A stretch of DNA of 64,000 bases, from contig OY764073.1 in NCBI GenBank assembly GCA_963668035.1, positions 4,814,653 through 4,878,652 on the forward strand, given 5' to 3'. This document shows, in pieces, positions 21,993 to 49,171 of this stretch. This stretch comes from Candidatus Poribacteria bacterium (lineage in GTDB: Bacteria > Poribacteria > WGA-4E > WGA-3G). Each line of letters opens with the position of its first letter. Position 1 is the stretch's first letter. Under the pieces are notes generated by a model, which worked only from the letters and a program-made list of their open reading frames with translations, was not told the DNA's origin and made no database searches. A program made the translations under genes and the position numbers.

Positions 21993-24497
21993 TTAGCGAT
22001 TGAATAAGAAAGCGGGACTGTTAATTAATGCCCACAACAAATCTTGCGCGCCTTCTTCTCTGGATTCAGCGTTCGCGATATGTTCAACCGCTACTGCATA
22101 TTCGTTCTTCTCTGGTAACCGAGAAAACGTTGCAAGATATAGGTCCTCAACGAGCACTCGGTCATCCTGATTCGTTTTGATAAGTTGTGCAATTCGCCCT
22201 TTTGGGTCAATGAGTGCCTCTGCGACTGTGGGTCCATTGATGAGGTTCATTGCATGGGCGAGACTGACTTCGGTTGTACGTTCACATTCGCACGAAGTTT
22301 CGCGTTCGGGTCTACCAAACAGTTTCAAAAATCCATCATCTTTGACCTTGCTGTCTGGCAATTGAACTGCGCGGAAGTTCTTGGGTACCTCTTGGAACCG
22401 CGGTCGACTCCCTGTTGCGACTCCGATAGCATCTAACAACTGTTCAGCCGTCAAGCGTCTTGCGACGGCGTGTGAGAAGTTAATTGTATCGGACTTGTTC
22501 CACTTGTTCGTCTTGATACTCTGTTGGTAGGTTCGCGAACGCGTGATCGTTTTCATCATAAGTCTTATGTCAAATCCACTGTCCACGAAATCCTTTGTCA
22601 ATGCTTCAAGCAGCTCAGGGTTGCTTGGTGGATTACTCGTCCGGATGTCGTCCACAGGTTCGATGATCCCGCGTCCCATGAAGTAGCTCCAGATACGGTT
22701 CACGCCTGCGCGTGCGAACATCGGATTTTCCTTGGAAGTAAGCCACTTTGCAAGCATCTTTTGTTTATCGTCGGTTTCTGCTGCAACTTCCCCGAATGGC
22801 ACAGCCGGTTCAACGACTGCTAAGGTTCGGGGGTGTTTCACAGGATCTGTAGTAAAGTTGGCATAGACGACCTCATCGCCTGGGAGCTGGCCTGGCTTCA
22901 CTTTGACATCCGCGAAGAACGCGCCCAGTTGATAGTACTGGTTTTGCGTCCATTTCTCGAACGGGTGGTCGTGGCATTTGTTGCATGAAAAACGGACCCC
23001 TAAGAACAGCTGCGTCGTGTTTTCTACTGCAGCCGTATATTCACGGGAAACACGGAAATAACTCGCTGCAGGATTCGCGTAGGTGCTTCCGGTCGCCGTA
23101 ATCAAGTCTCGCACAAACTGGTCGTACGGACGATTTTGTGCGATGGCTTGATGGATCCATTGTTGGAAAAGCCAGACACCGCGTTCACCGAGGAATTTAC
23201 GGTTGGACTGCAGCAGGTCTCCCCACTTATGCGTCCAATGGTCAACGAATTCGGGGGTTTCGACGAGGGTGTCAATCAGTTTTTCGCGTTTAGTTTTAGA
23301 GGCGGCGGTATCCGCGAGGAAGTTCCGCGCCTGTTCAGGGGTCGGTGGGAGGCCTGTCAGATCGAAATAGATGCGGCGTACAAACTCTTCATCTGTGCAG
23401 AGCTGAGAAGGTAGGATTTTCATCCGCTTCAATTTATTATGCACATGCGTATCAATATAATTATATTCAGGTGTTTCCACCCACTGGTACCCGCTTCTAT
23501 CGCCCATGACGATGATGCCGTTTGTACTATAAGCACCCTCATATCGCGTGAGGATAGCCGTTTCGCCGCGGCGCTCTGCCGTTACCACACCGTCGTCAGT
23601 GATCTTTGCGACTTCATTGACACTGCTCGTGAATTTCGCCTCACGGGTGACATCCCGCGTTGTGCCATCCGGATAGTGGGCGATCACCAAAAGCTGCTGC
23701 TGCATACCGGGCATAGCGAGTTCAGCGGCATCGGGTAGGACCTCTAACCTTTCGACGCGCTGCGTGGTTTTAACATCAGAGTTCGCTCCTTCCGCTATCC
23801 ATTGGTGGATGATCTCATAATCCCGCGAGCCCGGTACGATCACCTGTCCACCTTTGTGTGGCACTTCGGATGTCGGTTTAAGTAACATCAGGCTCTGCTC
23901 GGGAAAAGCCCTATTGAAGCGTCTGCCGGATATATCCTCAATCAAGAGTTCATAATCAAAATCGGGATCGTAACCACGGAGTGAAAGTTTGAATCCATTT
24001 TTACCTTTTGCTGCCCCGTGGCATGTGCCGTTGTTACAGCCGGCATGGCTCAGGAGCGGCATGACATCCCGGACGAAACTGACAGGGGGTGCCTCGATGC
24101 TCTTGACCTCTACGGGTAATTCCGCACGTACGCCGCTGACGGTAACCTCGATTTTCGTTGTGCCAACTGCCATCGGAAAGATATAACTATCTTCATGCAC
24201 CTTTACCCCGGCGTTAGCGGGTGTGAGTACTGCCCACGGCGTTACATCTACCCATTTCCCTTCTTTTGTCTTTCCTGACACGAGTACGCGTCTACCGTCC
24301 CGCGCATGTTCTAATGTTAGCGACTCCGGATGAACCCTCAACGCCTTCAAAGCGACACTTGCGAGCCACTCTTCCGCTGTCGGCACTTCGGCACTTGTTG
24401 GTCGCGCCATTTCACTTTGCGCCGCTAACTGCCACGCGAAGCATAAGGCGCATGCAACAAGGAGTGTAGTTACAAAGTTAAACCTGGGTTTCATCAA
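21993..24497 (-). CDS. DUF1549/DUF1553 (PSD1-type) domain protein with N-terminal Ig-like domain
   Basis: Signal peptide, CNNGTCHGAAKGKNGFKLSLRGYD (DUF1549) and FLGVRFSCNKCHDHPFEKW (DUF1553). This is the typical partner of DUF1501. Confidence 0.85.
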   Translation of the reverse strand: MMKPRFNFVTTLLVACALCFAWQLAAQSEMARPTSAEVPTAEEWLASVALKALRVHPESLTLEHARDGRRVLVSGKTKEGKWVDVTPWAVLTPANAGVKVHEDSYIFPMAVGTTKIEVTVSGVRAELPVEVKSIEAPPVSFVRDVMPLLSHAGCNNGTCHGAAKGKNGFKLSLRGYDPDFDYELLIEDISGRRFNRAFPEQSLMLLKPTSEVPHKGGQVIVPGSRDYEIIHQWIAEGANSDVKTTQRVERLEVLPDAAELAMPGMQQQLLVIAHYPDGTTRDVTREAKFTSSVNEVAKITDDGVVTAERRGETAILTRYEGAYSTNGIIVMGDRSGYQWVETPEYNYIDTHVHNKLKRMKILPSQLCTDEEFVRRIYFDLTGLPPTPEQARNFLADTAASKTKREKLIDTLVETPEFVDHWTHKWGDLLQSNRKFLGERGVWLFQQWIHQAIAQNRPYDQFVRDLITATGSTYANPAASYFRVSREYTAAVENTTQLFLGVRFSCNKCHDHPFEKWTQNQYYQLGAFFADVKVKPGQLPGDEVVYANFTTDPVKHPRTLAVVEPAVPFGEVAAETDDKQKMLAKWLTSKENPMFARAGVNRIWSYFMGRGIIEPVDDIRTSNPPSNPELLEALTKDFVDSGFDIRLMMKTITRSRTYQQSIKTNKWNKSDTINFSHAVARRLTAEQLLDAIGVATGSRPRFQEVPKNFRAVQLPDSKVKDDGFLKLFGRPERETSCECERTTEVSLAHAMNLINGPTVAEALIDPKGRIAQLIKTNQDDRVLVEDLYLATFSRLPEKNEYAVAVEHIANAESREEGAQDLLWALINSPAFLFNR

Positions 24498-24680
24498 AAA
24501 TTCGGCGTGGAACCCTCCGACTGTAATCGACGGAAGAGACGCCGTCCTCCTTTTTAATGGTTATCGGTACGGAAATCTGGCATGCAGATTCCCTTTCGGT
24601 TGCCTCTTTTACCACTGAATATAATGCGTATTTGATCGTTGAACCTTAATCTATCGTCTGCGTTGATTCTGTGTCAATAG

Positions 24681-25574
24681 TTACGAGATACCCCAAAGTA
24701 AGACAGAGTTATCTTCACTCGCGCTCGCGAGTAAACTACCATCAGGTACGTAAGCGACGTTCCTGACACTCCCCGTATGTCCTATGAGTGTGTCCTTCAG
24801 TCTGCCTCTCTTGACATCCCACAACCGCACTGTGCCGTCACTACTCGCACTTGCAAGCGTTGTGCCATCAGGTGAAAATGCGACACTCCAGACATAGCCT
24901 CTATGTCCCGTGAGTGTGTTTTCCGCTTCGCCAGTTACTGCGTCCCACAGGCGCACCGTACGGTCAGTGCTTCCACTGGCAAGCGTTTCGCCATTCGGCG
25001 TGTAGACAGCGGAATTGACAATATGTTTATGCCCCGTGAGGGCTGCTTTGTGCTGTCCAGTGGCGGCATCCCAAAGTAGGACGGTATCATCTCCACTGCC
25101 AGCTGCGATTGTCTTTCCATCAGGCGAATACGTAACGGATCTAATAGAGAACTGATCCACAGTGAGCGTGTTCTTGCTCTCCGCTGTGCTTGCGTCCCAC
25201 AGGCGCACCGTGCCATCCGGACTTCCACTGGCGATGGTGGTACCGTCAGGCGAAAACGCAACACTTCTAACAGCGTCTGTATGTCCGGTGAGCGTTGCTG
25301 TCGGAGCCCCGCTGGTTGCGTCCCACAGAATAACCGTGTTGTCAATACTCCCACTTGCGATGACGCTGCCATCGGGCGCGTAAGCGACACATCTGACGTA
25401 TTCCTTATGCTCTACGAGGAGATTGAGTCCTGTTGCACTCTCCACGTCGTAGACCCAAACGCCGATGTCGCAAGCGACTGCAAGCTGTGTACCGTCTGGT
25501 GAGAAGGCTATATCTCCAGTTAGATTCCCTTGATCGAGTCGAGCTTTGACTCCTTCAGGTAGATTCGATTGCAT
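24681..25574 (-). CDS. WD40-repeat protein (7 repeats, no signal peptide)
   Basis: Seven units of H...V.SVAFSPDG...ASGS.D.TVRLWD. The N-terminal LPEGVKARL motif is shared with the two large WD40 proteins. Confidence 0.85.
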   Translation of the reverse strand: MQSNLPEGVKARLDQGNLTGDIAFSPDGTQLAVACDIGVWVYDVESATGLNLLVEHKEYVRCVAYAPDGSVIASGSIDNTVILWDATSGAPTATLTGHTDAVRSVAFSPDGTTIASGSPDGTVRLWDASTAESKNTLTVDQFSIRSVTYSPDGKTIAAGSGDDTVLLWDAATGQHKAALTGHKHIVNSAVYTPNGETLASGSTDRTVRLWDAVTGEAENTLTGHRGYVWSVAFSPDGTTLASASSDGTVRLWDVKRGRLKDTLIGHTGSVRNVAYVPDGSLLASASEDNSVLLWGIS

Positions 25575-25635: not shown

Positions 25636-26454
25636 CTACTTCTGATTTTTCAGGTGTCCCCACACTATCGGCAGCTTACCACCGGCGGAAACATCTGCAT
25701 ATTCCGATTCACTTGCTAACCAGTTAATAACATTTTCTGTAAGTTTCTGTATCTGTTCAATATCCTTGTTGTTCTTATGAAAGTTCGGGAGTCGCCAGTT
25801 CATGTTGAAGACTTTACCGTCCCCGGCTTCCCAATACCCGAAAGCGGCAATCCTATCCGCGTAGTTAGTGCCTTGTTCGAAAGCGTGCGCGAGGGTTGTA
25901 AAATTCTTCCAAATCGTATCGAAATAGTCGCCACTTACTGGATATCCAGATGAGTTGACCTGAACCCAATCCTCGACTTTCGGTGTCTTCCCATCAACAT
26001 TCTTGAGTCCGTCTGTCAATCCGAGTTCCAGTGTCTCTTTGAGGACGATAATACCGACATTACTTCCATCGTCTGCAATGGGTCCAAATTTTCGTGGTTC
26101 TGCGTCCTCTAATCCCAATGGTGTCGCGTATCGGATAGCCGCGCCTGTCAGCAGCACTGCACCGCCGCTTTCAGCGTAGTCTAAGAACGCATTAATTTCT
26201 GCCCCGGATAATCCGCCCGGGTCGGTATCGCCATCATGCCACCAGACAACCCCGAACTGTTTGAATGTATCGCTTTTCAAGTCCGCTTTTGCGAGTCGTT
26301 TGGTCTTGAACGTCTTTTCAGCGAATTCCAATGCGGGTGTCGTAAAAGGACCCTTATCGCCGAGGTAGATAAATCCGACTTCTACCGCGGCATTGCCAAT
26401 AGTTATACCAAAGCAGAGAAGAAATGTCAAATAAAATACAATTTTCCGTTGCAT
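25636..26454 (-). CDS. hypothetical secreted protein
   Basis: Signal peptide MQRKIVFYLTFLLCFGITIGNA. No family was recognised. Confidence 0.5.
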   Translation of the reverse strand: MQRKIVFYLTFLLCFGITIGNAAVEVGFIYLGDKGPFTTPALEFAEKTFKTKRLAKADLKSDTFKQFGVVWWHDGDTDPGGLSGAEINAFLDYAESGGAVLLTGAAIRYATPLGLEDAEPRKFGPIADDGSNVGIIVLKETLELGLTDGLKNVDGKTPKVEDWVQVNSSGYPVSGDYFDTIWKNFTTLAHAFEQGTNYADRIAAFGYWEAGDGKVFNMNWRLPNFHKNNKDIEQIQKLTENVINWLASESEYADVSAGGKLPIVWGHLKNQK

Positions 26455-26578
26455 TTTTGCTCCTTATATGTTTACGCGAGGTAACGTGTGGACGTTTGCA
26501 TATTGATGGTCCATTTCAATAATACCATGCAATACCGTTTTTGTCAAAGTTTTTAGCAGAAAATTTATATCCGTTCGC

Positions 26579-27370
26579 CTATAACGGTAAATCTGTATTG
26601 TTTTGGCACTCGTGGAGTCGTTGATTTCCGATTTTCACGAAATTCGGTTCGATTTCAAATCCGATGAAATCCCGCTGATGTCGCTGACATACCACAGGAC
26701 AGGTACCTACACCGGCAAAAGGATCCAAAACAAGGTCCCCCGGTAAGGAACTCGCTAATACAATCCGTTCAATTAACCGCTCCGGTTTCTGAATTGTGTT
26801 CAGAGCCTCTCTACAGACTAACTCTTTTGACTTATATGTCAACTGTTTTATATCTCCCCAGACATTACCGGGGTTCTTTCCTTTTGCGTTAAACTTGGTT
26901 TTTCCGAATTTGCCGTTCGTTACGGATGGCACGTTTTCACACCGAAGTCGATGTTCCAACTCAACAAGTTGCGAGACTCTGATAGCATCCAAGTTATAGC
27001 ATTGTGGCTTTTTACCTTTGATGAAATAACAGATAATATCGTAGTTGTTCGTGTAATTGATGCGTCCTTGTGCCAGCCGACTCGGTTGATACCATACAAT
27101 CTTTGAACGGAGGTTTAAAAATGGACGATAATCAATAAAGTCGATACAATCGGGTTTGCCGAACAGATAAAGTGCACCGCCGTCTTTCAATTTGGGTGTG
27201 AACTTTTCGATGAGTGCAAGATTAAATTCCTGAATTGAGGGTATCTGGTCCCACGGTTCATCTGTTACGCCATACGGGCCATCACACACAATTAGATCTA
27301 CCGATGTATCTTGGACTTCATCCAATAGCGTAAACGTATCGCCACAATAGATATTGTTGTGTTCAAGCAT
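26579..27370 (-). CDS. beta-class DNA methyltransferase (N6-adenine or N4-cytosine), no cognate nuclease nearby
   Basis: Motif IV variant DLIVCDGPYG near the N-terminus and motif I VLDPFAGVGT near the C-terminus. Confidence 0.8.
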   Translation of the reverse strand: MLEHNNIYCGDTFTLLDEVQDTSVDLIVCDGPYGVTDEPWDQIPSIQEFNLALIEKFTPKLKDGGALYLFGKPDCIDFIDYRPFLNLRSKIVWYQPSRLAQGRINYTNNYDIICYFIKGKKPQCYNLDAIRVSQLVELEHRLRCENVPSVTNGKFGKTKFNAKGKNPGNVWGDIKQLTYKSKELVCREALNTIQKPERLIERIVLASSLPGDLVLDPFAGVGTCPVVCQRHQRDFIGFEIEPNFVKIGNQRLHECQNNTDLPL

Positions 27371-28886: not shown

Positions 28887-30491
28887 CTATTTCGCTGTTG
28901 CACTAAACCCAGTCTCTTTAACGATGTTCGCGAGATCGTTCACGGTAGCGGTGTTTTTTCGGACCTTAATGACGGCTTGATCGGGGAGAGAAACTTCAAC
29001 ACTGATAACGCTCTGGTGATGTGTAAGTGCATCCTGCACTTTTGCGACACACGCCCCTCACGTCATGCCTGAGACGACCAGAGCCACCTCTTCGCTTCCT
29101 GCGGGTTCAATCGGCACAGACATAAAGGCGTTCAAGAGTTTACCGGAAGCGGTATCAAATATCCGAACCTTTCCGTCAAACCCGCCTGTGGCGAGCTGTT
29201 TGCCATCCGGGTGGAACGCGACTGCGAAAACCCCGACTGCATCGCCTTGCATTGAGGCGATCCGCGTCCCATTTGCTACGTTGTAGATACGCGCTTCGCC
29301 GCCCGCGCAGCCGGTAGCCAATTGACTGCCATCCGCCGAAAACGCAACACCTTCAATTGAACCGGATTGCGCTTCATAGGCGCGGATGAGATTAAAATCT
29401 GTATTGCCGACATCTCTCCGTATTTCACGGAAGATTTTGTAGAGCCGCGGTATCCGGTCTTCACCTGCACTTAAAACCTGGTCTGCAGTCGGGTGTCGTG
29501 CGATGGTATTGATTTCGCCGTAGCCTTTGTTGCTGGAGTTGATGTCATCAACAAAAGAGCCTGTGTCTACTTCGACCAATTTGAGGGCAGTATCACGGCC
29601 AGCACTCACGAAATGTGAGCCATCAACAGAAAAGATTGTCCCGAAAACCCAATCGCTGTGATTATCGAATTTAATAAGTTCTTTTTCATCTTCAACGGAT
29701 AGGACCCGGACTGTTTGATCGGAGCATCCGAAAGCGACACGACTGGCATCGGGTGAGAAGGAGAGTCCGTAAATCGTATCATAGCTGGAACGCATCGCTT
29801 TGATGAGGGTATTCGTTGCGGTATCCCAGAGTTGGACTTCACCAAATTGTGCGGCGGATCCGCCTGCTACGCCTAATATTTTTCCATCTGCCGTATAGAT
29901 TAGTGATTCGATGCGACGCGCTTTCCCAACCAATCGCGCTTTGGGTTCAAAATGGACTGTGTCATACAATAAAACTTCGCGGACACCTGACACTGCAAGC
30001 GTGCTGCCATCGGGTGAGTATGCCAGGGCAGTAACCAGCGGCGGGACGATGTAAGTAGGATAGTTTCCGTCTCCTATATCGTCGACTTCGGCGGGTGTGT
30101 CGTCGTTCGCGCCTTCAAGGATCCAACGCCGAAAGAGTTCGACCTCTTCTGGAGAGAGAGGTTCTTGATTTTGTGGCATCGCGGGTTCGTCCCCGGAGAT
30201 GAGTTCAATGAGGAGGCTTTCATCGGGTTTCCCTGGAAGGATCGCATCCCCTGCCATTCCGCCGCGCTTGAGATCCGCGTAATTCGTGACAATCAGGTCA
30301 CCGCTCGGTTCACCGGGGTGGTGGCAGCCTTGACAACTCCGTTTGAGAATTGGGACGATCTGTGAATGGTAGCTGACGGGTGCCGCTGCGCCGTGATTGT
30401 CTGCCGTTACAACAAGCGGGACCCATACGATAAGGAAACCGAGTAAGGACACTGCTAAATGGATCGTAAACTTTGATTGCGATATTTTCAT
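28887..30491 (-). CDS. candidate selenoprotein: planctomycete-type cytochrome c domain + beta-propeller + C-terminal HMA domain with UGA (Sec) at the first Cys of the GMTCxxC motif
   Basis: CQGCHH haem motif and WD40-like repeats. The ORF ends ...VALVVSGMT at TGA 29058-29060, then continues in frame with GACVAKVQDAL...ETGFSATAK to TAG 28887-28889. A SECIS-like hairpin follows the TGA. ATG 30491 is preferred as the start (signal-anchor MKISQSKF...). Confidence 0.75.
29019..29052 (-). promoter_or_regulatory. SECIS-like hairpin downstream of UGA 29060-29058
   Basis: The mRNA reads GUGUGU-CGCAA-AAGUGCA-GGA-UGCACUU-ACACAU: a 7-bp apical stem with a GGA loop, plus a 6-bp lower stem. The loop lies ~26 nt after the U of UGA. 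Confidence 0.6.
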
Positions 30492-32335: not shown

Positions 32336-32417
32336 AGTGCGAACATAAAACTGGAAGCGTTTGTCTAAATATTGGGGTTATATTATTTATGGAGAGAACA
32401 ACGACCGGAGGAAAAAA

Positions 32418-35400
32418 ATGAATTTGATAGGTCATATAAATTTTGGTATAACTTGCAAGCCGAAACTTGCTGTCCAAAAACTTGCCATCGTAGGTCTGCT
32501 TGGTATCGTGTTGCTTATTAACGGCTGCGTTAAGATGGAGGCGACGCGGAAAGCGGATTGGGAAACACATTTCACGGATGTCCACTTCGTCAACCACAAA
32601 CAGGGGTGGATTGTCGGGGAGGGTGGCCTGATAATTCATACGGCAGATGGCGGAAAGACATGGAAACAACAAGAGGTCGATACAACAAGTCCAGGCTTTC
32701 GTATGCCTGATGCTTCATTGGACTTCAAAGCGGTTTATTTTACAAACGTGAACTACGGTTGGGCGGTCGGCGATGAAGGGTTAGTCGCAACAACGGACGA
32801 TGGTGGTAGGCATTGGACATTGCAAAAGAGCGGTTCCTCCGCTATGCTCTTGGATGTCTTTTTTGTGAACTCAAAAGAGGGTTGGATTGTTGGCGAAGAC
32901 TCGGATGTCCTCTATACCAAAAACGGCGGAAAAGCATGGCAACGCTACGAGTATGTTAGCGAATTTATGCTTAATGGGGTTTGGTTCGTTGATAAGTCAA
33001 ACGGATGGGTTGTGGGTACACACGATAGAATTTTCCACACGCAAACGGGTGGCAAAGCGTGGCGAGAACAGAGCAACCGTTTTGAAGGCGAACGCGACCG
33101 GATGATCAATGATAACAAGCAGGTCTTTTTCGTCAGCGATAATGAAGGGTGGATTGTCGGGAGTGACGGCTCTATCTTTCACACGACGACCGCGGGTGCG
33201 AACTGGGAACGTCAAGATAGTCGGATCCCGCTGATTAATGGACACGTCCGAGATACCATCAATAGCATCCATTTCACAGATGAAAACTACGGTATCGCCG
33301 TAGCGGATGTCGGTTTTATCACACGCACCGAAGATGGGGGCGACAATTGGCAATTGATGGAGAGTGGTACGGAAAACAATTTAACCGGAATCCAGTTCAC
33401 AACGCCTACAGAGGCCTGGGCAGTCGGATGGTACGGGACTATTTTACACACGACGGATGCGGGCGCGACATGGGAGATGACGAGCGGTACGACAGCGAAT
33501 GACCTTCAGAATGTCCAATTTACCGATGCCAACCGCGCGATCGCTGTTGGCAGACGCGGTACGATGGCGATGAGCAACGATGGCGGGCAAACGTGGAACG
33601 AGATTGAAACGGATATCTGGGACGGTATTTGGAACATCTATTTCGCAACCGACAAACACGGGTGGGCAGTCGGTGAGCGTGGACTTATCGTTCATACCGA
33701 CGATGGCGGTGCAACCTGGGAGCGTCAGCGCGGGCCTTCCGCCTTTCCGCTGCGTTCTGTGCATTTCGTGAGTCCTAAGGTCGGCTGGATCGTTGGGGAT
33801 CTCGGGACGATTATACACACGATGGATGGCGGCAACACGTGGCTGCCACAGACCGCCATAGGCGATTTTCTCTCTGTGATGCTCAAGGGCGTATTTTTTC
33901 TCGATGAAAAGCGGGGTTGGGCTATCGGGTGGCCCGGTGTTTGTCTTGCGACAGAAGATGGCGGTTTGACGTGGAACCAACAGACGACCGGCACCTTTAA
34001 TGAACTCTACGCTGTCTACTTCGCAAATCAGAATACCGGTTGGATTGTCGGGCAATTTGGCGAGATTTTATATACGAAAAACGGCGGTAAAAAATGGAAT
34101 TTCCAACGTAGCGGCACGCAAGAGAATCTGAATAAACTCTATTTTGCGGATACACAGCACGGTTTAATCGTTGGGGACAACGGCGTGATGCTTACGACCA
34201 TTAACGGCGGCAAAAAGTGGGAAATGCAGGAAAGTGGAACCGACAATGACCTTTACGGGTTAGCACTCTCGCCTGATGGCGTTGTCGCTGTCGGTAAAGG
34301 CGGGATTGCGATGCGGTATTCGGTAGACGAGGCAGAATTGCCCGCCAAATTACCGCCTGTCGCCGAAGAACCCGAAATCGTCGCTGCCGAAGAAGAGGCT
34401 CCGGTTGAACCCGTTGCTTACCATTGGGATATTATCCGTCAGGCGGCTTGGAGAACCGACTTTGCAGATACGCATTTTGTAGATACCCAAAACGGTTGGG
34501 CAGTCGGTTCGGGGGGTGTCATCGCGCATACCACAGACGGTGGAAAGACATGGCTCCCGCAACATAGCGGTGTCAGTGAAAATTTACGCGAAGTGGAATT
34601 CGTTGATGCGAAACACGGAAGAGTCCTCGGTGCTGGCACTTTACTCCAGACAGAAAACGGTGGTGAAACGTGGCAGCCGATTCTTCAAGCCACCAAGCAA
34701 AACCTTCCGCGTGTGAGCAGCATGCACTTCCTGAATGCCCAAGAGGGATGGCTCGGGGCGACAATAGGGCAGATACTGCACACGACTGATGGCGGTAAGA
34801 CGTGGGAAATTCAGAAAACCGGGACGACAATGGCAAACATTACCGACATCCATTTTATTAACAGTCAAGTTGGATGGGCTGTGACCCCTCAACGTCGAGA
34901 CGGGGGATTTATTCTCCACACTGTTGACGGGGGTGCCTACTGGAAAATTCAGGCAAAAACCAACCAGCCCGGTGTCGCCGTCCACTTTGCCGATGAAACG
35001 CATGGCTGGGTGATTCTCGGTAACGGGAACTCCTTATTGACTGAAGATGGCGGCGAAACGTGGAAATTGCAAATCACGTCACAAAGCACGCGTGGTTTGC
35101 GACGTGTTACTTTCCGTTCTCATACCAAGGCGTGGGGACTCGGGGGTGACGGTGCGTATATCACTGAGGACCAAGGGGTAAATTGGAAGCCAGTCTCTGT
35201 TGCCACAACAGCGGAGCTGCTCGCTATGAAAGAAACCGAAGCCCCTGCACCAGAAGCAGATAAATCGGAGACAGAGGGTGTAGAGGGCCCCACGTTACAG
35301 TATGACGAGACCCCGGAGGAAATACAAAATCGGCGGCGCGCAGAGCGGCAGCGTCCGGGCAATCTCGCCCCAGAAGGCACACTTCCACCGAATACCGAAC

Positions 35401-36494
35401 GCGCGAATCCGCCACCAGCACGGCAACAACAGCCGCCACCGCCCCCTGAACCTCGGAGACGGTTTAGACGCGGCGGACAGCGAGTCGCCAGTGTATATTT
35501 CCTTGATGCGGAACACGCTTGGGCAGTTGGTAGCGCGGGCAGTATCTATTACTCCGAAAATGGCGGTAAAACCTGGGAACGTCAACTCGGTGAACAGGAG
35601 CGCAACGACTTCCGCGAGGTGCTTTTCTACGATGATAAGAATGGTTGGATAGCGGGCAGCGGCGGCATGCTATTGGAAACCCAAGACGGTGGAGCGACCT
35701 GGAACAAACTTCCAAGTCAAACGCGCCAACGCCTCATCGGCATCCACTTTGCAAGTTTGGAACCGAAATGGGGTTGGGCAATGCAACAGGATGGGACTGT
35801 GTTGTATACCACGGATGGCAACATCTGGACAGCGGGAGACACGCCTGAACGTCCACCGTTTATGGAAGGCGATCCGCCGGGCAATTTCTCACTAAACGAC
35901 GTTGCTTTCGGTAAATTTTCTGAAGGCTGGGCGGTCGGTCGATTCGGAGACATCATCCACAACAAAGACGGGGGTCCGACGTGGACGCTGCAGCGGACGA
36001 CTGCGAATGACACGCTCAGAAGCACAGATATGAAATTCGCGCCCCTCGGTTGGGCAGTCGGGCAAGGCGGTGTCACCCAGCGAACCATTAACGGGGGTCA
36101 ATATTGGCGGATGCATGAAACCAAGACGACCTACGATCTCAACGCGGTCTCATTTATCACCAAGCGGAAAGGCTGGGCAGCGGGTGAGGCTGGCATCGTG
36201 CTCAAAACGACCGATGGTGGTTTTGCATGGCAACCTATATTGACGGGTGTTCCCAAAGACCTTCACGGCATCGTTGCGATCTCCGAGCAGGAGGTCTATG
36301 CGGTTGGTGACGAAGGAACGATTGTCCGCTCAACCGACAGCGGTGAAACGTGGGAACAGGAGCATACGGATATAGATAATAACTTGTATGTTATCACGCG
36401 TTCTAAAGACGGTAAAGCGTTGTGGGTCGTTGGACAGTGGGGTGTCGTGCTCCGTCGGAAGTTGGAGACGCAGGAGAAGATGTCAATGCGGTAA
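32418..36494 (+). CDS. giant multi-propeller BNR/Asp-box (Ycf48-like) repeat protein
   Basis: Dozens of T.DGG.TW Asp-box units spread over several propeller-sized blocks, plus a Pro/Arg-rich linker QQQPPPPPEPRRRFRRGG. ATG 32418 follows GGAGG. Confidence 0.75.
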   Translation: MNLIGHINFGITCKPKLAVQKLAIVGLLGIVLLINGCVKMEATRKADWETHFTDVHFVNHKQGWIVGEGGLIIHTADGGKTWKQQEVDTTSPGFRMPDASLDFKAVYFTNVNYGWAVGDEGLVATTDDGGRHWTLQKSGSSAMLLDVFFVNSKEGWIVGEDSDVLYTKNGGKAWQRYEYVSEFMLNGVWFVDKSNGWVVGTHDRIFHTQTGGKAWREQSNRFEGERDRMINDNKQVFFVSDNEGWIVGSDGSIFHTTTAGANWERQDSRIPLINGHVRDTINSIHFTDENYGIAVADVGFITRTEDGGDNWQLMESGTENNLTGIQFTTPTEAWAVGWYGTILHTTDAGATWEMTSGTTANDLQNVQFTDANRAIAVGRRGTMAMSNDGGQTWNEIETDIWDGIWNIYFATDKHGWAVGERGLIVHTDDGGATWERQRGPSAFPLRSVHFVSPKVGWIVGDLGTIIHTMDGGNTWLPQTAIGDFLSVMLKGVFFLDEKRGWAIGWPGVCLATEDGGLTWNQQTTGTFNELYAVYFANQNTGWIVGQFGEILYTKNGGKKWNFQRSGTQENLNKLYFADTQHGLIVGDNGVMLTTINGGKKWEMQESGTDNDLYGLALSPDGVVAVGKGGIAMRYSVDEAELPAKLPPVAEEPEIVAAEEEAPVEPVAYHWDIIRQAAWRTDFADTHFVDTQNGWAVGSGGVIAHTTDGGKTWLPQHSGVSENLREVEFVDAKHGRVLGAGTLLQTENGGETWQPILQATKQNLPRVSSMHFLNAQEGWLGATIGQILHTTDGGKTWEIQKTGTTMANITDIHFINSQVGWAVTPQRRDGGFILHTVDGGAYWKIQAKTNQPGVAVHFADETHGWVILGNGNSLLTEDGGETWKLQITSQSTRGLRRVTFRSHTKAWGLGGDGAYITEDQGVNWKPVSVATTAELLAMKETEAPAPEADKSETEGVEGPTLQYDETPEEIQNRRRAERQRPGNLAPEGTLPPNTERANPPPARQQQPPPPPEPRRRFRRGGQRVASVYFLDAEHAWAVGSAGSIYYSENGGKTWERQLGEQERNDFREVLFYDDKNGWIAGSGGMLLETQDGGATWNKLPSQTRQRLIGIHFASLEPKWGWAMQQDGTVLYTTDGNIWTAGDTPERPPFMEGDPPGNFSLNDVAFGKFSEGWAVGRFGDIIHNKDGGPTWTLQRTTANDTLRSTDMKFAPLGWAVGQGGVTQRTINGGQYWRMHETKTTYDLNAVSFITKRKGWAAGEAGIVLKTTDGGFAWQPILTGVPKDLHGIVAISEQEVYAVGDEGTIVRSTDSGETWEQEHTDIDNNLYVITRSKDGKALWVVGQWGVVLRRKLETQEKMSMR

Positions 36495-36557
36495 CATGGA
36501 GGCACTCATGGCATCTATTGCAGCAAGAACTTATCTGACATAGGAAGTTTTTAATAC

Positions 36558-37526
36558 ATGAAATCAAAATCCAGCAAAGCATTACTTATTTCAGTCCTGT
36601 TGCATCTCGGTGTTGGGGTGCTTGGGTTTTTCTATTGGTTTGGTACGGCTCCGATGAAAGAATCTGAGCGTATCGACGCGCTCTTTGTTCGGGAAGAAAA
36701 GCCGAAAGTTAGACGTGTAACGCCCCCGAAACGTGCGCAAATTGTGCAAAAAAGGACAAACACTGTGAGTCAGCAACGTCTCAAAATCCTTACGAGTAAC
36801 GCGCCTGTCAGCAGTCGCGGCGTGGTTTCCGCAGCCGAGCCTGCACCCTTTCAGCAGTTCGATAGCAACGATCTGAGCGAACCGATTGGTCCCACTGCAA
36901 CATCTGTCGAATTTGACAATGTGCCCCGTGTCCAAAAAGTGATTGAACGTCCTTTTGTAAAACCAGAGAAAGTCGAAACCCGCCACAAAAGTAGATTAGT
37001 GAAGTTCATTGAAGCACAAGAGGGACCCCAAAGGATCGTTTATTGTGTGGATTTGTCAACGAGTATGCAGAACCTACCGCCGCACAAACTCAAGAAGATT
37101 ATAGACCTCATGCGGGATTCGCTCACTTTCCTTGAGCCACACGATAATTTCAATATTGTTGCATTTAGTACGGAACTGATTGTCTATCAGACAGGCTTTA
37201 TACCTGTGACGGCGGAGGCTGTATCCGCATCGTCAGATTATCTTGCAGACATCCAATCCCACATCCATACAAAAGGCACCGATCACGATATGCTAACGAC
37301 ACTGACAGAAACCGCGAAGACGGATCCCACCCTTGTCGTTCTTTTTAGCGATGGAATTCCTACCACTATTGAGGGTCCGGATCTGACGCTCGTCGGTCAA
37401 TATGCCACAGGCAACGGACGCATTTTTGCTATGGGGATCGGGATGTCTCCCAATTTTCCCGGGGCAGTTATGTTGAAGCAGTTGGCGACGGTGAGTGAAG
37501 GCGATCTCTGGCTCGTTGATAGGTAG
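36558..37526 (+). CDS. membrane-anchored von Willebrand factor type A (vWA) domain protein
   Basis: N-terminal TM helix ALLISVLLHLGVGVLGFFYWF, MIDAS-like VYCVDLSTSM, and NIVAFST...VVLFSDG. Confidence 0.7.
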   Translation: MKSKSSKALLISVLLHLGVGVLGFFYWFGTAPMKESERIDALFVREEKPKVRRVTPPKRAQIVQKRTNTVSQQRLKILTSNAPVSSRGVVSAAEPAPFQQFDSNDLSEPIGPTATSVEFDNVPRVQKVIERPFVKPEKVETRHKSRLVKFIEAQEGPQRIVYCVDLSTSMQNLPPHKLKKIIDLMRDSLTFLEPHDNFNIVAFSTELIVYQTGFIPVTAEAVSASSDYLADIQSHIHTKGTDHDMLTTLTETAKTDPTLVVLFSDGIPTTIEGPDLTLVGQYATGNGRIFAMGIGMSPNFPGAVMLKQLATVSEGDLWLVDR

Positions 37527-37533
37527 GGCTAAC

Positions 37534-39318
37534 ATGCATGAATCCAGTCTCACCCGTGCTGAAAACATTGCCAAAGGGTTGTATCCACACCAAATAGAAG
37601 GGATCGCTTTTCTGCTCGGTCGTCGGCGCGCGCTCCTCGCTGATGATATGGGACTCGGCAAAACGCGTCAATCGGTAATTGCGATGGTTGAGGCGGAAGC
37701 AGAGGGTCTCTATCTTGTGATCTGTCCTGCTTCTGTCAAACGGAACTGGTCTCGCGAAATCCAGATTGTTTTCCCGGCAGCCGAACCTGTTATCGTTGGG
37801 CCCGCCCCGCTCCCAGCAACGGATTTCCGGGGCTGGGTTATCATCAACTATGAGATCCTTGGTAAGCATCTGGAGGACCTGCTGACATATCAATGGAAAG
37901 GCGTTGTTTTTGACGAGGCGCATTACCTGAAAAATCACCGGAGTCAACGGAGCCGGAACGCCGCTAAACTGGTAAAAGCGATCCAGCATGAACCCGTAGT
38001 CCACGCGTTAACTGGAACACCGATGACAAACCGTCCCCGCGACCTTTTCCCACTATTACAGTTGATGAACCACCCACTCGGTAAGAGTTTCCTCAGCTTT
38101 GCGAAACGCTATTGTGATGCGTATCAAGGGGATTTTGGCTTGGTGGCAGATGGTGCAAGCAATATTGAGGAATTAACCGTGCAGCTCCATGGGGTGATGT
38201 TACGGCGCACCAAAAACGAGGTATTAGATCTCCCACCTAAGGTGCGAACATGGTTGGACATTGAACTTCACCCTTACGCGATTCAACATTTCAACAACGC
38301 CGTCCGAGAATTCCTAACGAAGTTTGACGCGCCTGAACCCATAGATACAATAGGGAATCAGCCAGAAAACATGGAGCGGCGACAAGCAGTTGGTCGGTTA
38401 ACGACAGCGCGTCGAAAACTGGCATTTGCCAAATGCCGACACACAATCAAATTTGTGGAAAACGCCTTGGAACAGGGTGAAAAGGTGATTCTTTTTACGA
38501 CTTTCCTCAATACGCTGGAGCGTTTTCACAAACACTTCGGCGACCGCGCCGTTTATGTCTTTGGAGAGGTTCCGGCGGAAGAGCGGCAAAACCGTGTCGA
38601 TCGGTTTCAGAACGATGAAACCGTGAGGCTTTTCATTGCGAACATGCACGTCGCGGGTGTAGGCATCAACTTGACGGCTGGTCGGCAGGTTGTTTTTAAC
38701 GATTTAGATTGGGTGCCTGCGAACCACTGGCAGGCAGAGGATCGCGCCTATCGGATCGGCCAGACAGGAACGGTCAACGTCACCTATATGATCGCGCGTG
38801 GCACGGTGGACGAATTTGTGAAGACCGTATTAGAGACAAAAGCTGCGCTGATGGATGCGCTCGTTGAAGGTAAACTTCTGATACCTGGTGAAGATGGCGC
38901 GTTGCAACCGGATGTGCTCAGTGAACTCAAGCGGATGATGAATGCGCTCTCCGTACATGTTGATGAAGTTGAAGAGCCGCAGCTGCTGGATATGCTCCAA
39001 AAAGCGAGCGAGGCGTATCTTGAAGAAAACGCGTCACAGCTCCGTGAAGCAACACGTGCGCAGCTGCGTCCGTATTCCGAAGAAGCCATCCGCACCTTAG
39101 CACAAGTGCTCGCGGGGCCCGAGCGGAGTGTCTATCATGCCGAGAGTTCATCACAGAAAGGTAAGTTCTATACATTGGAGGTTGTCGGTACAGATATAAC
39201 GTGCGATTGTCCGGGCTTCACGCACCGTGGCAGTTGCCGACACGTCCGTCCCTTGAAATCCGCCCTCGTTGCGGACAAACCTTTGCCAGCGGCGTATCAA
39301 AAAGTTTTTCCAGATTAG
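37534..39318 (+). CDS. SNF2-family helicase/translocase with C-terminal SWIM zinc finger
   Basis: LYPHQIEGIAFLL, LADDMGLGKT, VFDEAHYLKN, QAEDRAYRIGQ, and SWIM CDCPGFTHRGSCRH. Confidence 0.85.
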   Translation: MHESSLTRAENIAKGLYPHQIEGIAFLLGRRRALLADDMGLGKTRQSVIAMVEAEAEGLYLVICPASVKRNWSREIQIVFPAAEPVIVGPAPLPATDFRGWVIINYEILGKHLEDLLTYQWKGVVFDEAHYLKNHRSQRSRNAAKLVKAIQHEPVVHALTGTPMTNRPRDLFPLLQLMNHPLGKSFLSFAKRYCDAYQGDFGLVADGASNIEELTVQLHGVMLRRTKNEVLDLPPKVRTWLDIELHPYAIQHFNNAVREFLTKFDAPEPIDTIGNQPENMERRQAVGRLTTARRKLAFAKCRHTIKFVENALEQGEKVILFTTFLNTLERFHKHFGDRAVYVFGEVPAEERQNRVDRFQNDETVRLFIANMHVAGVGINLTAGRQVVFNDLDWVPANHWQAEDRAYRIGQTGTVNVTYMIARGTVDEFVKTVLETKAALMDALVEGKLLIPGEDGALQPDVLSELKRMMNALSVHVDEVEEPQLLDMLQKASEAYLEENASQLREATRAQLRPYSEEAIRTLAQVLAGPERSVYHAESSSQKGKFYTLEVVGTDITCDCPGFTHRGSCRHVRPLKSALVADKPLPAAYQKVFPD

Positions 39319-39405
39319 ACTCGAACCTAACCTATCACGCGAATTCTCAAAATTGTCCGAACGGGCAACCAAGCAAGCAGCTACAGAAAATAGGAGTTGT
39401 TAAAA

Positions 39406-39819
39406 ATGGAACATACAACCTGTGTCGAACTTGCAAATTTAGCGGATCTGATCTTAGCAAAAGCGGGGGTTATCGATCCCAAAAAGGTGCGGCGGCTTAC
39501 CGTCGAAGACGCGCTCGTTGATACTGGAGCGACAGGACTCTGTTTACCTAAATCGCTCATAGAGGAGCTCGGACTCACACCGGTAGGGACATCTACGGCG
39601 GAAACCGCCAACGGCATCGTAGAGCGCACTATCTATTCAGAGGTGGAATATACTGTATTGGGACGCACCTATTCCATCCGGGTGACAGATCTTCCTGAAT
39701 ATGCGCCGGTCCTCCTCGGCCACATGATATTGGAAGCACTTGATCTTTGTCTTGACATCAAAAAAGGGCTCATCCACAATCCTAATCATGACGGTGCATG
39801 GACGGTTCGGATACTCTGA
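39406..39819 (+). CDS. retropepsin-like (clan AA) aspartic protease
   Basis: ALVDTGATGLCLP (D-T-G active-site motif). ATG 39406 lies 9 nt after TAGGAG. Confidence 0.7.
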   Translation: MEHTTCVELANLADLILAKAGVIDPKKVRRLTVEDALVDTGATGLCLPKSLIEELGLTPVGTSTAETANGIVERTIYSEVEYTVLGRTYSIRVTDLPEYAPVLLGHMILEALDLCLDIKKGLIHNPNHDGAWTVRIL

Positions 39820-39860
39820 GCGGTTATCAATTTGTTGTGTTTGGAAAATAACTATATCCT

Positions 39861-43442: not shown

Positions 43443-43580
43443 ACTTTCCAACCTTAGCCAAATATTTCTAAATTCGGGGCAAATAACAAAAATTTTGTAA
43501 CGCCAATCCGCAAAAGACGTTTAATAAAAAGATAATCCCTTCCAATCCCAATTAGAGAGATTTTCAAGGAGAATGATAAC

Positions 43581-49150: not shown

Positions 49151-49171
49151 TTTGAATCGCATCTTTGGAAG

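What the first reader, a model, noticed from the sequence alone, without database searches (positions are those of the whole stretch)
28887..30491. Candidate selenoprotein: heavy-metal-associated domain with selenocysteine in the GMTCxxC motif, fused to a cytochrome c/beta-propeller protein
The tracked 509-aa ORF stops at TGA 29058-29060 right after ...EEVALVVSGMT. The same frame continues for 56 more codons: GACVAKVQDALTHHQSVISVEVSLPDQAVIKVRKNTATVNDLANIVKETGFSATAK, ending at TAG 28887. Joined together this is a textbook HMA (CopZ/MerP-like) ferredoxin-fold domain. The TGA falls exactly on the first metal-binding Cys of GMT-C-xx-C, giving U-G-A-C. Directly downstream the mRNA can form GUGUGU-CGCAA-AAGUGCA-GGA-UGCACUU-ACACAU (29019-29052), whose G-containing apical loop lies ~26 nt after the UGA. 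That geometry is typical of a bacterial SECIS and resembles the fdhF UGCAGG..UGCA apical helix. A second UGA gene in this window (48920-49150) has a hairpin at the same distance, which shows the organism probably decodes Sec. I do not know of a Sec-containing metal-binding site on the end of an exported PSCyt-type cytochrome c/WD40-like protein having been characterised.
Basis: partly seen in the sequence, partly recalled or inferred. Interest (0 to 1): 0.85.

Follow-up and report, generated by a model that had tools for sequence, protein, structure and literature searches.

The report
Selenocysteine metal-binding tail on exported cytochrome
An apparent stop codon in this sponge-symbiont (Poribacteria) gene almost certainly encodes selenocysteine in the metal-binding site of a small C-terminal domain on an exported haem/beta-propeller protein, which adds an unannotated but not unprecedented family to the bacterial selenoproteins.

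Summary
The minus-strand gene 30491→28887 has an in-frame TGA (29058-29060). The TGA lies on the first Cys of the GMT-C-xx-C motif of an HMA domain, at the end of a signal peptide–PSCyt1 haem c–7-bladed WD40 protein.

- **Conservation:** all 80 orthologues from different Poribacteria species have TGA at this codon. About 56 more codons follow, and they evolve as coding sequence.
- **Cys form:** a sister clade of six Poribacteria has TGT/TGC at the site.
- **SECIS:** a 7-bp hairpin with a GGN loop lies 23 nt after the UGA and meets all four published bacterial SECIS criteria. Its stem holds the only three synonymously frozen codons in the whole gene. The constraint disappears in the Cys forms.
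- **Sec decoding:** TGA is an ordinary stop elsewhere in the window. A second selenoprotein (Rdx/SelW) lies in the window, and one carrier genome is reported to have SelA, SelB and SelD.

What is new is the architecture and the lineage. The function (soft-metal binding, possibly linked to the haem) is inferred, not shown.

The parts
28887..30491 (-). Complete selenoprotein gene: 534 codons including one Sec-UGA, plus the TAG stop at 28887-28889
   Evidence: Orthologues align from residue 1, and the frame is conserved through the TGA in 81/81 sequences.
30399..30491 (-). N-terminal signal peptide or signal anchor (residues 1 to about 31: MKISQSK-FTIHLAVSLLGFLIVWVPLVV-TAD)
   Evidence: Read from the sequence: a basic n-region, a hydrophobic core and V-T-A before DNHG. 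AF2 models a helix at residues 2-30. Export is also required for c-type haem attachment (established knowledge). Inferred; no signal-peptide predictor was run.
30174..30335 (-). PSCyt1 (Planctomycete cytochrome c) domain. The CxxCH haem-binding motif C53-Q-G-C56-H57 lies at 30321-30335, and a conserved P-A-M105-P motif is a candidate axial Met ligand.
   Evidence: Pfam PF07635, 36.8 bits against 22. C53, C56, H57 and P103-A-M-P106 are invariant in 21 orthologues.
29121..30044 (-). Seven-bladed WD40 beta-propeller (residues about 150-457)
   Evidence: Pfam WD40, 103 bits. The AF2 model is confident in this region. Foldseek gives TM 0.91 (target-normalised) to the 7-bladed WD40 structure 7bie.
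28890..29087 (-). HMA (heavy-metal-associated, ferredoxin-like) domain, residues about 469-534, with the motif G-M-T-U-G-A-C
   Evidence: Pfam PF00403, 36 bits against 24.8. NCBIfam CopZ, MerP and UxxU models all hit, but all below their cutoffs. PDB sequence matches to ATP7B metal-binding domains, CopZ and MerP. Cys-form orthologue P0271.
29058..29060 (-). Sec-UGA codon (residue 478), aligned to the first Cys of GMTCxxC
   Evidence: TGA in 81/81 Sec-clade sequences. TGT/TGC in six Cys-clade Poribacteria.
29025..29041 (-). Bacterial SECIS core: AAGUGCA-GGA-UGCACUU. It has a 7-bp stem and a 3-nt GGN apical loop (29032-29034), which starts 23 nt after the UGA.
   Evidence: RNAalifold consensus. 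G30 and G31 are invariant in 81/81. Val+7, Gln+8 and Ala+10 are the only synonymously frozen codons among 310 conserved degenerate columns of the gene. The constraint is absent in Cys forms.

Best explanation
This is one gene encoding a 534-residue selenoprotein of a Poribacteria bacterium.

**Shown by comparative sequence evidence.** The UGA at 29058-29060 is not a terminator here. A SECIS hairpin lies in the coding sequence, with a 7-bp stem and a GGN loop 23 nt downstream of the UGA. The inference is that this hairpin recruits SelB carrying Sec-tRNA(Sec), so that selenocysteine is inserted and translation continues for 56 more codons. The product is: signal peptide, PSCyt1 c-type haem domain, 7-bladed WD40 propeller, a linker of about 10 residues, and an HMA domain whose metal-binding motif is G-M-T-U-x-x-C instead of G-M-T-C-x-x-C.

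**Inferred from the families involved.**
- The protein is exported to the periplasm, because c-type haem attachment requires export.
- The HMA arm uses a selenolate/thiolate pair to bind a soft metal ion (Cu(I), Hg(II), Ag(I) or Cd(II)) in the way CopZ and MerP do.
- Sec has a lower pKa and is more nucleophilic than Cys. That would keep the site reactive and easier to re-reduce in the oxidising extracytoplasmic space.
- The tethered haem c may supply or accept electrons for the U-x-x-C pair or for the bound metal.
- The propeller acts as a docking platform.

The recoding part is very likely (about 0.9). The metal-binding role is plausible (about 0.5). Coupling to the haem is speculative.
For: **Recoding.**
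1. TGA sits at the identical codon in 80/80 orthologues from distinct Poribacteria species (71-88% identity). The frame stays open for 56-58 codons to a shared stop.
2. None of 81 sequences has an in-frame stop downstream, against 39/81 and 81/81 in the other frames. Variability by codon position downstream is 456:393:1385, matching the upstream coding pattern of 725:432:1810.
3. There is a Sec/Cys pair. Six Poribacteria (L081-L086) have TGT/TGC at this site in the same fusion protein. Sec and Cys clades are reciprocally monophyletic in 100/100 bootstraps.
4. The hairpin meets the published bSECIS constraints: a 3-nt loop, a 7-bp stem, GG at the first two loop positions in 81/81, 23-nt spacing, and MFE of -15.9 kcal/mol.
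5. Selection acts at the RNA level. Of 196 conserved codon columns with 3-fold or greater degeneracy, only Val+7 (GTG 81/81) and Ala+10 (GCA 80/81) are fixed. Of 114 two-fold columns, only Gln+8 (CAG 79/79) is fixed. All three are in the stem.
6. The loop codon is GAT, GCT, GGT or GTT (D/A/G/V). G31 and T33 are fixed while the amino acid varies freely.
7. One stem pair changes from A-U to G-C in three species, which is compensatory.
8. In Cys forms the same codons vary (GTG/GTA, GCG, AAC), and the hairpin is lost from the MFE fold of L082 and L084.

**Sec trait.**
- TGA is a normal stop in 11/44 long ORFs of the window.
- A bona fide Rdx CxxU selenoprotein lies in the window, and its TGA is conserved in 63/63 Poribacteria loci.
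- Poribacteria WGA-3G (L048, a carrier of this gene) is listed with SelA = 2, SelB = 1 and SelD = 1 (PMC5649159 Table S4).
- Sec-type hydrogenases are reported in Poribacteria (PMC13582414).

**Domain identities:**
Against: - There is no experimental evidence here: no 75Se labelling, no peptide data, no ribosome profiling.
- The genome of the window's own organism could not be searched for selA, selB, selC or selD. The window holds no tRNA and no sel gene.
- The hairpin stem is almost invariant, so covariation support is minimal: one compensatory pair in three related species.
- The hairpin's fold energy in the window alone is only modestly unusual (z = -2.1 to -2.4).
- A similar weak hairpin can form in some Cys-form HMA genes (L081, L088). 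The K-V-Q-x-A-L codons therefore predispose to it.
- For function, no mer or cop genes are nearby. The neighbours are a sulfatase and YceI.
- The domain scores far below the cutoffs of the MerP, CopZ and UxxU equivalog models.
- The HMA structure model was low-confidence (pLDDT 45.5).
- The full read-through protein could not be modelled.
Confidence: 0.85

Rival explanations
1. The UGA is recoded as Sec, but the U-x-x-C pair is a redox-active selenenylsulfide centre rather than a metal site. The HMA fold would have been re-used as an oxidoreductase module. It would be fed by, or would feed, the haem c, and would act on a substrate or partner docked on the propeller.
For: The 2026 review describes selenoproteins as critical for antioxidant defence, and an earlier review says most prokaryotic families are thought to act in redox reactions (PMC13188914, PMC9312934; abstracts). 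UxxC is the commonest redox motif in the review's table. A one-electron carrier (haem c) is covalently part of the same exported polypeptide. No metal-resistance genes are nearby.
Against: The full GMTxxxC signature and the rest of the HMA profile are those of metal-binding CopZ, MerP and ATPase domains. To my knowledge no HMA-fold oxidoreductase is known. Metal-ligand Sec has predicted precedents in the MerP, ATPase, UxxU, SaoB and SaoL families.
Confidence: 0.2
2. The UGA is read through or recoded, but not as Sec. Candidates are near-cognate Trp, Cys or Arg read-through, or Cys insertion by a tRNA(ReC)/selC*-type tRNA using the same hairpin.
For: Sequence data alone cannot identify the inserted residue. 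tRNA(ReC)-like tRNAs that decode UGA in the presence of SECIS elements are discussed for genomes with Sec-type hydrogenases (PMC13582414).
Against: - The hairpin matches the SelB-type bSECIS consensus, including the invariant GG loop.
- The UGA sits exactly on a Cys that is a classic Sec-replacement site.
- Sec machinery and other selenoproteins are present in the lineage.
- If Cys were the product, a TGT/TGC codon would serve without the cost. The sister clade does exactly that and then loses the hairpin constraint.
Confidence: 0.04
3. The UGA is a true terminator. The propeller protein ends at Thr477, and the downstream 50-56 codons are either a separately initiated small protein (for example from GTG 29039) or a conserved non-coding or decaying remnant.
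For: All public gene calls stop there: the 120 best database hits are about 475 aa. A 50-aa GTG ORF exists at 28887-29039.
Against: - A separate product would lack beta-strand 1 and the first metal ligand, because the GMT|xxC motif is split by the stop.
- The frame, the length (56 codons in 79/81) and coding-type substitution are preserved across 81 species. That is incompatible with a remnant.
- Cys-form orthologues are translated straight through.
- More distant relatives without HMA end cleanly about 10 residues after the propeller, with no GMT tail.
Confidence: 0.03
4. The TGA is a sequencing or assembly error, or a pseudogene lesion specific to this window.
For: None beyond the bare presence of an in-frame stop.
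Against: The same TGA occurs in 80 independently assembled genomes, including long-read complete chromosomes.
Confidence: 0

Closest known systems
[quoted passage not shown]
   Same: Bacterial selenoproteins from metal-handling families. The listed ATPase motif is UxxC, as here. All are bioinformatic predictions only.
   Different: Those are a stand-alone periplasmic MerP and a membrane P-type ATPase. Here the domain is the C-terminal module of an exported haem c/WD40 protein. There is no mer or ATPase context, and the TIGR02052 MerP score is 29-31 against a cutoff of 92.55. I did not verify that the Sec of those proteins lies in an HMA domain. For the ATPase, that placement is my inference from the motif and the family.
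NF041115 'UxxU_metal_bind' metal-binding (seleno)protein (NCBIfam; 'putative mercuric reductase' in PMC13188914)
   Same: An HMA-like domain of about 70 aa with Sec in the metal-binding motif. The domain here aligns to it end to end (profile positions 2-70 of 74).
   Different: That family is a stand-alone 74-aa protein with two Sec residues (UxxU). Here there is one Sec (UxxC) in a fusion protein, and the score is 33-37.5 bits against a cutoff of 95, so this is not a member.
CopZ/Atx1 copper chaperones, the N-terminal metal-binding domains of Cu-ATPases (ATP7A/B, CopA), and MerP (Cys-type HMA domains, PF00403)
   Same: The same Pfam family, above the gathering score. The same GMTCxxC signature and length. 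The best solved-structure matches are ATP7B metal-binding domains, CopZ (1cpz) and MerP (1afi).
   Different: The first ligand is Sec, not Cys. The domain is extracytoplasmic and fused to a cytochrome/propeller. All CopZ equivalog models are missed (34-40 bits against cutoffs of 85-95).
Cys-form PSCyt1-WD40-HMA orthologues in a sister clade of Poribacteria (P0271/L081, L082-L086)
   Same: The same full architecture and linker, 57-58% identity over about 539 residues, and the same motif GMTCGACVAKVQ.
   Different: TGT/TGC instead of TGA. The hairpin codons are relaxed (GTA, GCG, AAC). The gene neighbourhood is different.
PSCyt1-WD40 exported proteins without HMA (for example P0124, P0126, P0136; 40-52% identity)
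   Same: The same signal peptide, CxxCH cytochrome domain and 7-bladed propeller body.
   Different: They end about 10 residues after the last blade (...FVPVPI...) and have no HMA domain and no TGA. The HMA module was therefore added once, in the Poribacteria lineage.
E. coli fdhF SECIS (upper stem-loop UGCA-GGUC-UGCA)
   Same: A short G+C-containing upper helix with a GG-initiated apical loop at a fixed distance from the UGA, inside the coding region.
   Different: Here the loop is 3 nt (GGN), there is no bulged U and no conserved lower stem. No Rfam family matched.

Membership tests
Bacterial selenoprotein gene (Sec-UGA plus bSECIS) | In-frame UGA aligned to a conserved Cys in homologues (Sec/Cys pair) | tested here: met
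   TGT/TGC at the homologous codon in L081-L086. The TGA aligns to the first Cys of GMTCxxC in Pfam HMA and in PDB HMA domains.
Bacterial selenoprotein gene (Sec-UGA plus bSECIS) | UGA and the flanking coding sequence conserved in orthologues from other organisms | tested here: met
   80/80 species have the TGA. There are no downstream in-frame stops, and substitution is dominated by third codon positions.
Bacterial selenoprotein gene (Sec-UGA plus bSECIS) | bSECIS model (PMC13188914 Fig. 2A): 3-9 nt apical loop and 4-16 bp upper stem | tested here: met
   3-nt loop and 7-bp stem in the RNAalifold consensus of 81 sequences.
Bacterial selenoprotein gene (Sec-UGA plus bSECIS) | At least one G in the first two apical-loop positions (G[G|U] pattern) | tested here: met
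   The loop is GGN, and G30 and G31 are invariant in 81/81. The Cys forms have AAC instead of GNT at the loop codon, so the loop reads GAA.
Bacterial selenoprotein gene (Sec-UGA plus bSECIS) | Spacing of 16-37 nt between the UGA and the apical loop | tested here: met
   23 nt (alignment columns 7-29).
Bacterial selenoprotein gene (Sec-UGA plus bSECIS) | MFE of -7.5 kcal/mol or lower | tested here: met
   -15.9 kcal/mol for the window (47 nt). -9.9 and -10.8 kcal/mol for the divergent orthologues L078 and L066. The bare consensus helix is borderline at -7.4.
Bacterial selenoprotein gene (Sec-UGA plus bSECIS) | selA, selB, selC and selD present in the same genome | not testable with these tools
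   The window has no tRNA and no sel genes, and its full genome is not available. Indirect evidence: carrier genome WGA-3G (L048) is listed with SelA, SelB and SelD (PMC5649159 Table S4). Rdx carries a TGA in 63/63 Poribacteria loci.
Bacterial selenoprotein gene (Sec-UGA plus bSECIS) | Selenium actually incorporated at the UGA (75Se labelling or mass spectrometry) | not testable with these tools
   Requires an experiment.
HMA domain (Pfam PF00403) | Profile match above the gathering score | tested here: met
   36.0 bits against 24.8, residues 473-529, profile positions 4-61 of 62, with Cys substituted for Sec.
HMA domain (Pfam PF00403) | G-M-x-C-x-x-C metal-binding loop between beta-1 and alpha-1 | tested here: met
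   G-M-T-U-x-x-C is conserved in 81/81: TGA at the first position and Cys at +3.
HMA domain (Pfam PF00403) | Ferredoxin-like beta-alpha-beta-beta-alpha-beta fold | tested here: inconclusive
   The single-sequence AF2 model of Cys-form P0271 gives E64-70, H75-89, E95-99, E102-108, H114-124, E127-131. That is the right order, but pLDDT is only 50-66 in this part.
MerP (TIGR02052) / mer operon | Equivalog score at or above the cutoff, and a merT/merA neighbourhood | tested here: not met
   29-31 bits against 92.55. The neighbours are a sulfatase, a DNA methylase and YceI.
CopZ metallochaperones (NF033794, NF033795, NF047957) | Equivalog score at or above the cutoff; a stand-alone cytosolic protein of about 68 aa | tested here: not met
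   33-40 bits against cutoffs of 85-95. Here the domain is the C-terminal module of an exported 534-aa protein.
NF041115 UxxU metal-binding (seleno)protein | Score of 95 bits or more; UxxU motif; stand-alone protein of about 74 aa | tested here: not met
   33.0-37.5 bits. The motif is UxxC (Cys at +3 in 81/81), and the domain is fused to a larger protein.
PSCyt1 (PF07635) c-type cytochrome domain | Gathering score met and a CxxCH haem-attachment motif present | tested here: met
   36.8 bits against 22. C53, C56 and H57 are invariant. Haem attachment itself cannot be tested here.
WD40 seven-bladed propeller | WD40 repeats that fold into a closed 7-blade propeller | tested here: met
   PF00400, 103 bits. 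The AF2 model is confident over residues about 150-457. Foldseek gives TM 0.91 to the 7-bladed structure 7bie.

The most novel reading that the evidence does not exclude
The protein is a new kind of extracytoplasmic, electron-wired metal-handling device. In this reading, a selenolate/thiolate HMA arm captures a soft metal ion (Hg(II), Cu, Ag) or a metalloid in the periplasm of a sponge symbiont. The covalently linked haem c then changes the metal's redox state, or re-reduces the Se-S bond. The WD40 propeller docks a partner. Sec would have been selected because a Cys pair would be trapped as a disulfide outside the cytoplasm. That would make it the first haem-coupled Sec metallochaperone or metal reductase.
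Probability: 0.12. Interest if true: 0.75.

Novelty: new variant of a known kind. Interest (0 to 1): 0.5.

Why it matters
- **Annotation.** It adds a well-supported and widely conserved selenoprotein family (at least 81 species) to a candidate phylum known mainly from sponge microbiomes. Public annotation truncates every copy I examined at the UGA, so the metal-binding domain is invisible in the databases.
- **Sec as a metal ligand.** Most selenoproteins are thought to use Sec in redox reactions. This is one of few cases where Sec sits in a classical metal-chaperone site, and it comes with a natural Cys-form sister clade. The pair is a ready-made system for asking what Sec buys over Cys in soft-metal binding outside the cytoplasm.
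- **SECIS evolution.** The Sec/Cys pair also shows SECIS gain or loss at single-codon resolution: GTG/GCA/GNT against GTA/GCG/AAC.
- **Method.** Scanning for "propeller proteins ending in GMT" illustrates how C-terminal truncation at a split motif can reveal selenoproteins.

Tried and rejected
- **Rfam (gathering thresholds) on the whole window:** no hits. This is uninformative, because no family matched either of the two SECIS hairpins.
- **ARAGORN:** no tRNA or tRNA-Sec in the window.
- **NCBIfam scan of ten ORFs sized like SelA, SelB or SelD:** none is a sel gene.
rejected as part of the conserved element. TGT-to-TGC at column 15 and C-to-A at column 43 are uncompensated, and RNAalifold drops the helix.
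The full read-through protein was therefore never modelled.
- **Single-sequence AF2 model of P0271:** low confidence. I did not use it for fold search.
- **Fold search of the N-terminal model:** only generic WD40 propellers were returned, with no enzyme analogue.
- **Scan of the window for further Cys-adjacent in-frame TGAs:** nothing convincing apart from the two known genes.
- **PADLOC scan of neighbouring genes:** no link to the finding.
- **Code reassignment of UGA:** considered and rejected (TGA is a normal stop in 11/44 ORFs).
- **Assembly error:** considered and rejected (80 independent genomes).
- **Whether the Cys-form genomes have lost Sec decoding:** I could not determine this, because collection scans cannot be restricted to named genomes.
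Full report
**1. The observation.**

On the minus strand an ORF begins at ATG 30491. The longest mechanical ORF begins at TTG 30587. It reaches TGA 29058-29060 immediately after ...EEVALVVSGMT. The same frame stays open for 56 more codons (GACVAKVQDALTHHQSVISVEVSLPDQAVIKVRKNTATVNDLANIVKETGFSATAK) to TAG 28887-28889.

With Cys placed at the TGA, the 534-aa product passes Pfam gathering thresholds for three families:
- PSCyt1: residues 53-106, 36.8 bits against 22.
- WD40: 103 bits.
- HMA: residues 473-529, 36.0 bits against 24.8.

The TGA falls on the first Cys of the G-M-T-C-x-x-C metal-binding loop. The closest solved structures by sequence are the metal-binding domains of ATP7B, CopZ and MerP, and the position aligns to their first ligand Cys. 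Taken alone it is only modestly more stable than shuffled sequence: -23.1 kcal/mol, z = -2.4, with 3 of 200 shuffles as good.

**2. Comparative evidence that the UGA is decoded.**

A protein search returned 120 close relatives (72-88% identity). Those that a source names are Candidatus Poribacteria. All are about 475 aa and cover 89% of the query, so gene callers stop every one of them at the same place.

I fetched the DNA of 80 orthologous loci, each from a different species-level genome. The results were:
- All 80 carry TGA at the identical codon, flanked by G-M-T and x-x-C.
- The frame continues for 56 codons in 79 of 81 sequences (57 and 58 in the other two) to a shared TAG, TAA or TGA.
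- In the 165 nt after the TGA, no sequence has an in-frame stop. 39/81 and 81/81 have stops in the other two frames.
- Variation by codon position downstream is 456:393:1385. That is the same third-position-dominated pattern as the 56 codons upstream (725:432:1810).

The extension is therefore under purifying selection as protein. TGA is not reassigned in this organism, because it terminates 11 of 44 ordinary long ORFs in the window.

**3. A Sec/Cys pair.**

I searched with the last blade, the linker and the HMA domain. Exactly one uninterrupted protein came back, P0271. Its contig (L081) and five further Poribacteria genomes (L082-L086) encode the whole PSCyt1-WD40-HMA fusion with TGT or TGC at the site (...VVTGMTCGACVAKVQNAL...).

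In a neighbour-joining tree the 81 Sec forms and 5 Cys forms are reciprocally monophyletic in 100/100 bootstraps. Together they form one clade, separate from PSCyt1-WD40 relatives that lack HMA. Those more distant relatives (40-52% identity) end about 10 residues after the last blade. So the HMA module was acquired once. The direction of the Sec/Cys change cannot be decided from sister clades.

**4. The SECIS element.**

RNAalifold on 81 sequences keeps a single helix: AAGUGCA-GGN-UGCACUU (window 29025-29041). It has 7 bp and a 3-nt loop that starts 23 nt after the UGA.

Against the consensus bacterial SECIS model (PMC13188914, Fig. 2A), all four constraints are met:

| Constraint | Required | Observed |
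|---|---|---|
| Apical loop | 3-9 nt | 3 nt |
| Upper stem | 4-16 bp | 7 bp |
| G in the first two loop positions | at least one | GG, invariant in 81/81 |
| UGA-to-loop spacing | 16-37 nt | 23 nt |
| MFE | -7.5 kcal/mol or lower | -15.9 in the window; -9.9 and -10.8 in divergent orthologues |

Because the stem is nearly invariant, covariation is minimal. One pair changes from A-U to G-C in three species. The stronger test is synonymous-site conservation:
- Among 196 conserved codon columns of the gene with 3-fold or greater degeneracy, only two have one codon fixed in at least 98% of species: Val+7 (GTG 81/81) and Ala+10 (GCA 80/81).
- Among 114 two-fold columns, only Gln+8 (CAG 79/79) is fixed.
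- All three form the stem.

The loop codon is GAT, GCT, GGT or GTT (Asp/Ala/Gly/Val). The amino acid is therefore free, while G31 and T33 are fixed.

In the Cys-form clade the same codons are GTG/GTA, GCG and AAC, and the hairpin drops out of the MFE fold in L082 and L084. The RNA-level constraint thus exists only where the UGA exists.

**5. Does the lineage decode Sec?**

The window contains no tRNA and no sel genes, which is not surprising for 64 kb. The indirect evidence is as follows:
- The second UGA gene (48921-49151) is a genuine Rdx/SelW-family CxxU selenoprotein: PF10262, 89.4 bits; NF041051, 90.5 bits against a cutoff of 88.
- That gene has a GCCA-GUU-UGGC hairpin 22 nt after its UGA. 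Its TGA is conserved in 63/63 Poribacteria loci.
- Slaby et al. 2017 (PMC5649159, Table S4) list SelA = 2, SelB = 1 and SelD = 1 for Ca. Poribacteria WGA-3G. That genome is locus L048, which carries the TGA form of this gene.
- Sec-type [NiFeSe] hydrogenases have also been reported from Poribacteria (PMC13582414).

**6. What the protein is.**

The N-terminus (MKISQSK-FTIHLAVSLLGFLIVWVPLVV-TAD) looks like a signal peptide, and AF2 models it as a helix. The CxxCH motif (C53, C56, H57) and a P-A-M-P motif are invariant. c-type haem attachment implies export. Residues about 150-457 form a confident 7-bladed WD40 propeller. Its structural neighbours are generic WD40 scaffolds (TM 0.91 to 7bie), not enzymes. 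A short linker of about 10 residues joins the last blade to the HMA domain.

The HMA domain hits the CopZ, MerP, MerTP, MerA-N and UxxU models of NCBIfam. All scores (29-40 bits) are far below the cutoffs (85-180), so it belongs to none of those specific families. The neighbours do not suggest a metal operon: a sulfatase downstream in 74/80 loci, a divergent YceI upstream in 48/80, and a DNA methylase.

**7. Mechanism.**

*Shown by comparative evidence:* UGA recoding directed by a coding-region SECIS, which yields an exported haem c/propeller protein ending in a U-x-x-C HMA domain.

*Inferred:*
- The selenolate/thiolate pair binds a soft metal ion as CopZ and MerP do.
- Sec is favoured because it stays deprotonated and is kinetically easier to re-reduce in the oxidising periplasm.
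- The haem may exchange electrons with the site or with the bound metal.

The main functional rival is that U-x-x-C acts as a redox centre and not as a metal site. Non-Sec read-through, true termination and assembly error are each poorly compatible with the data. See the rival explanations.

**8. Comparison with what is known, and novelty.**

Sec in metal-handling proteins of this type has been predicted before:
- The 2026 review table also lists a UxxU metal-binding protein (NF041115).

No mention of PF00403, WD40, a beta-propeller or PSCyt1/Planctomycete cytochrome was found in that review. The Poribacteria proteins that sources name are called 'hypothetical protein' or 'WD40 repeat protein', and all are truncated.

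I therefore rate this as a new variant of a known kind. It is a new, well-conserved selenoprotein family with a novel architecture, not a new principle. Interest is 0.5. The evidence is solid, the family is useful to the selenoprotein and sponge-symbiont fields, and it comes with an attractive natural Sec/Cys pair. A specialist would not, however, find it deeply surprising.

Noticed in passing
window 48921-49151 (+): An unannotated Rdx/SelW-family selenoprotein (MEVRIEYCTA-U-NYKPRAA; TGA at 48950-48952). It passes NF041051 (90.5 bits against 88) and has a GCCA-GUU-UGGC hairpin 22 nt after the UGA. The TGA is conserved in 63/63 Poribacteria loci and in 15/15 loci from other phyla.
   Followed up: yes
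window 50067-51095 (-): A 342-aa ORF whose N-terminal ~156 residues match the RNA-guided endonuclease IscB model NF040563 (86.7 bits, below the cutoff of 175). It has no PADLOC hit and lies near the Rdx gene. It could be an IscB-like or degenerate OMEGA-type nuclease. No search for an associated RNA was made.
   Followed up: no
window 25636-27370 (-): A type II DNA methyltransferase (26579-27370; PF01555; PADLOC MTase_II, 160 bits) lies next to a 272-aa ORF (25636-26454) with no Pfam or PADLOC match. The pair may be a restriction-modification system with an unrecognised endonuclease. tblastn finds matches to each of the two genes in about half of the orthologous loci: 52/80 and 44/80.
   Followed up: partly
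window 32361-45161 (+): An SNF2-family helicase (37495-39318) resembles ZorD, DpdE and DrmD defence helicases (PADLOC 191 bits). It is flanked by very large ORFs of 1377 aa (32361-36494) and 1193 aa (39861-43442) that match no PADLOC model. This is a possible uncharacterised defence island.
   Followed up: partly
window 21993-25574 (-): Two further PVC-type genes lie close to the target: a PSCyt2/PSD1 (DUF1549/DUF1553) protein (21993-24497) and a separate 7-blade WD40 protein (24681-25574). Whether they work with the selenoprotein is unknown.
   Followed up: no
L088:3031 (deep-ocean Poribacteria MAG JAYGDX010000130.1): A stand-alone, lipoprotein-like HMA protein with Cys (GMTCGACVAKVQGAL). By eye, its codons (AAG GTG CAG GGC GCA CTG) can also form a GUGC-AGGGC-GCAC hairpin with G-rich loop bases; this was not folded. 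The K-V-Q-x-A-L coding sequence may therefore be pre-adapted to become a SECIS, or this may be a relic of one.
   Followed up: partly
L050:4390 and L050:5404: This locus (MAG PYJE01000053.1) shows the C-terminal GMT-TGA-HMA segment twice, about 1 kb apart, with one amino-acid difference. It is either a tandem duplication or an assembly repeat.
   Followed up: no
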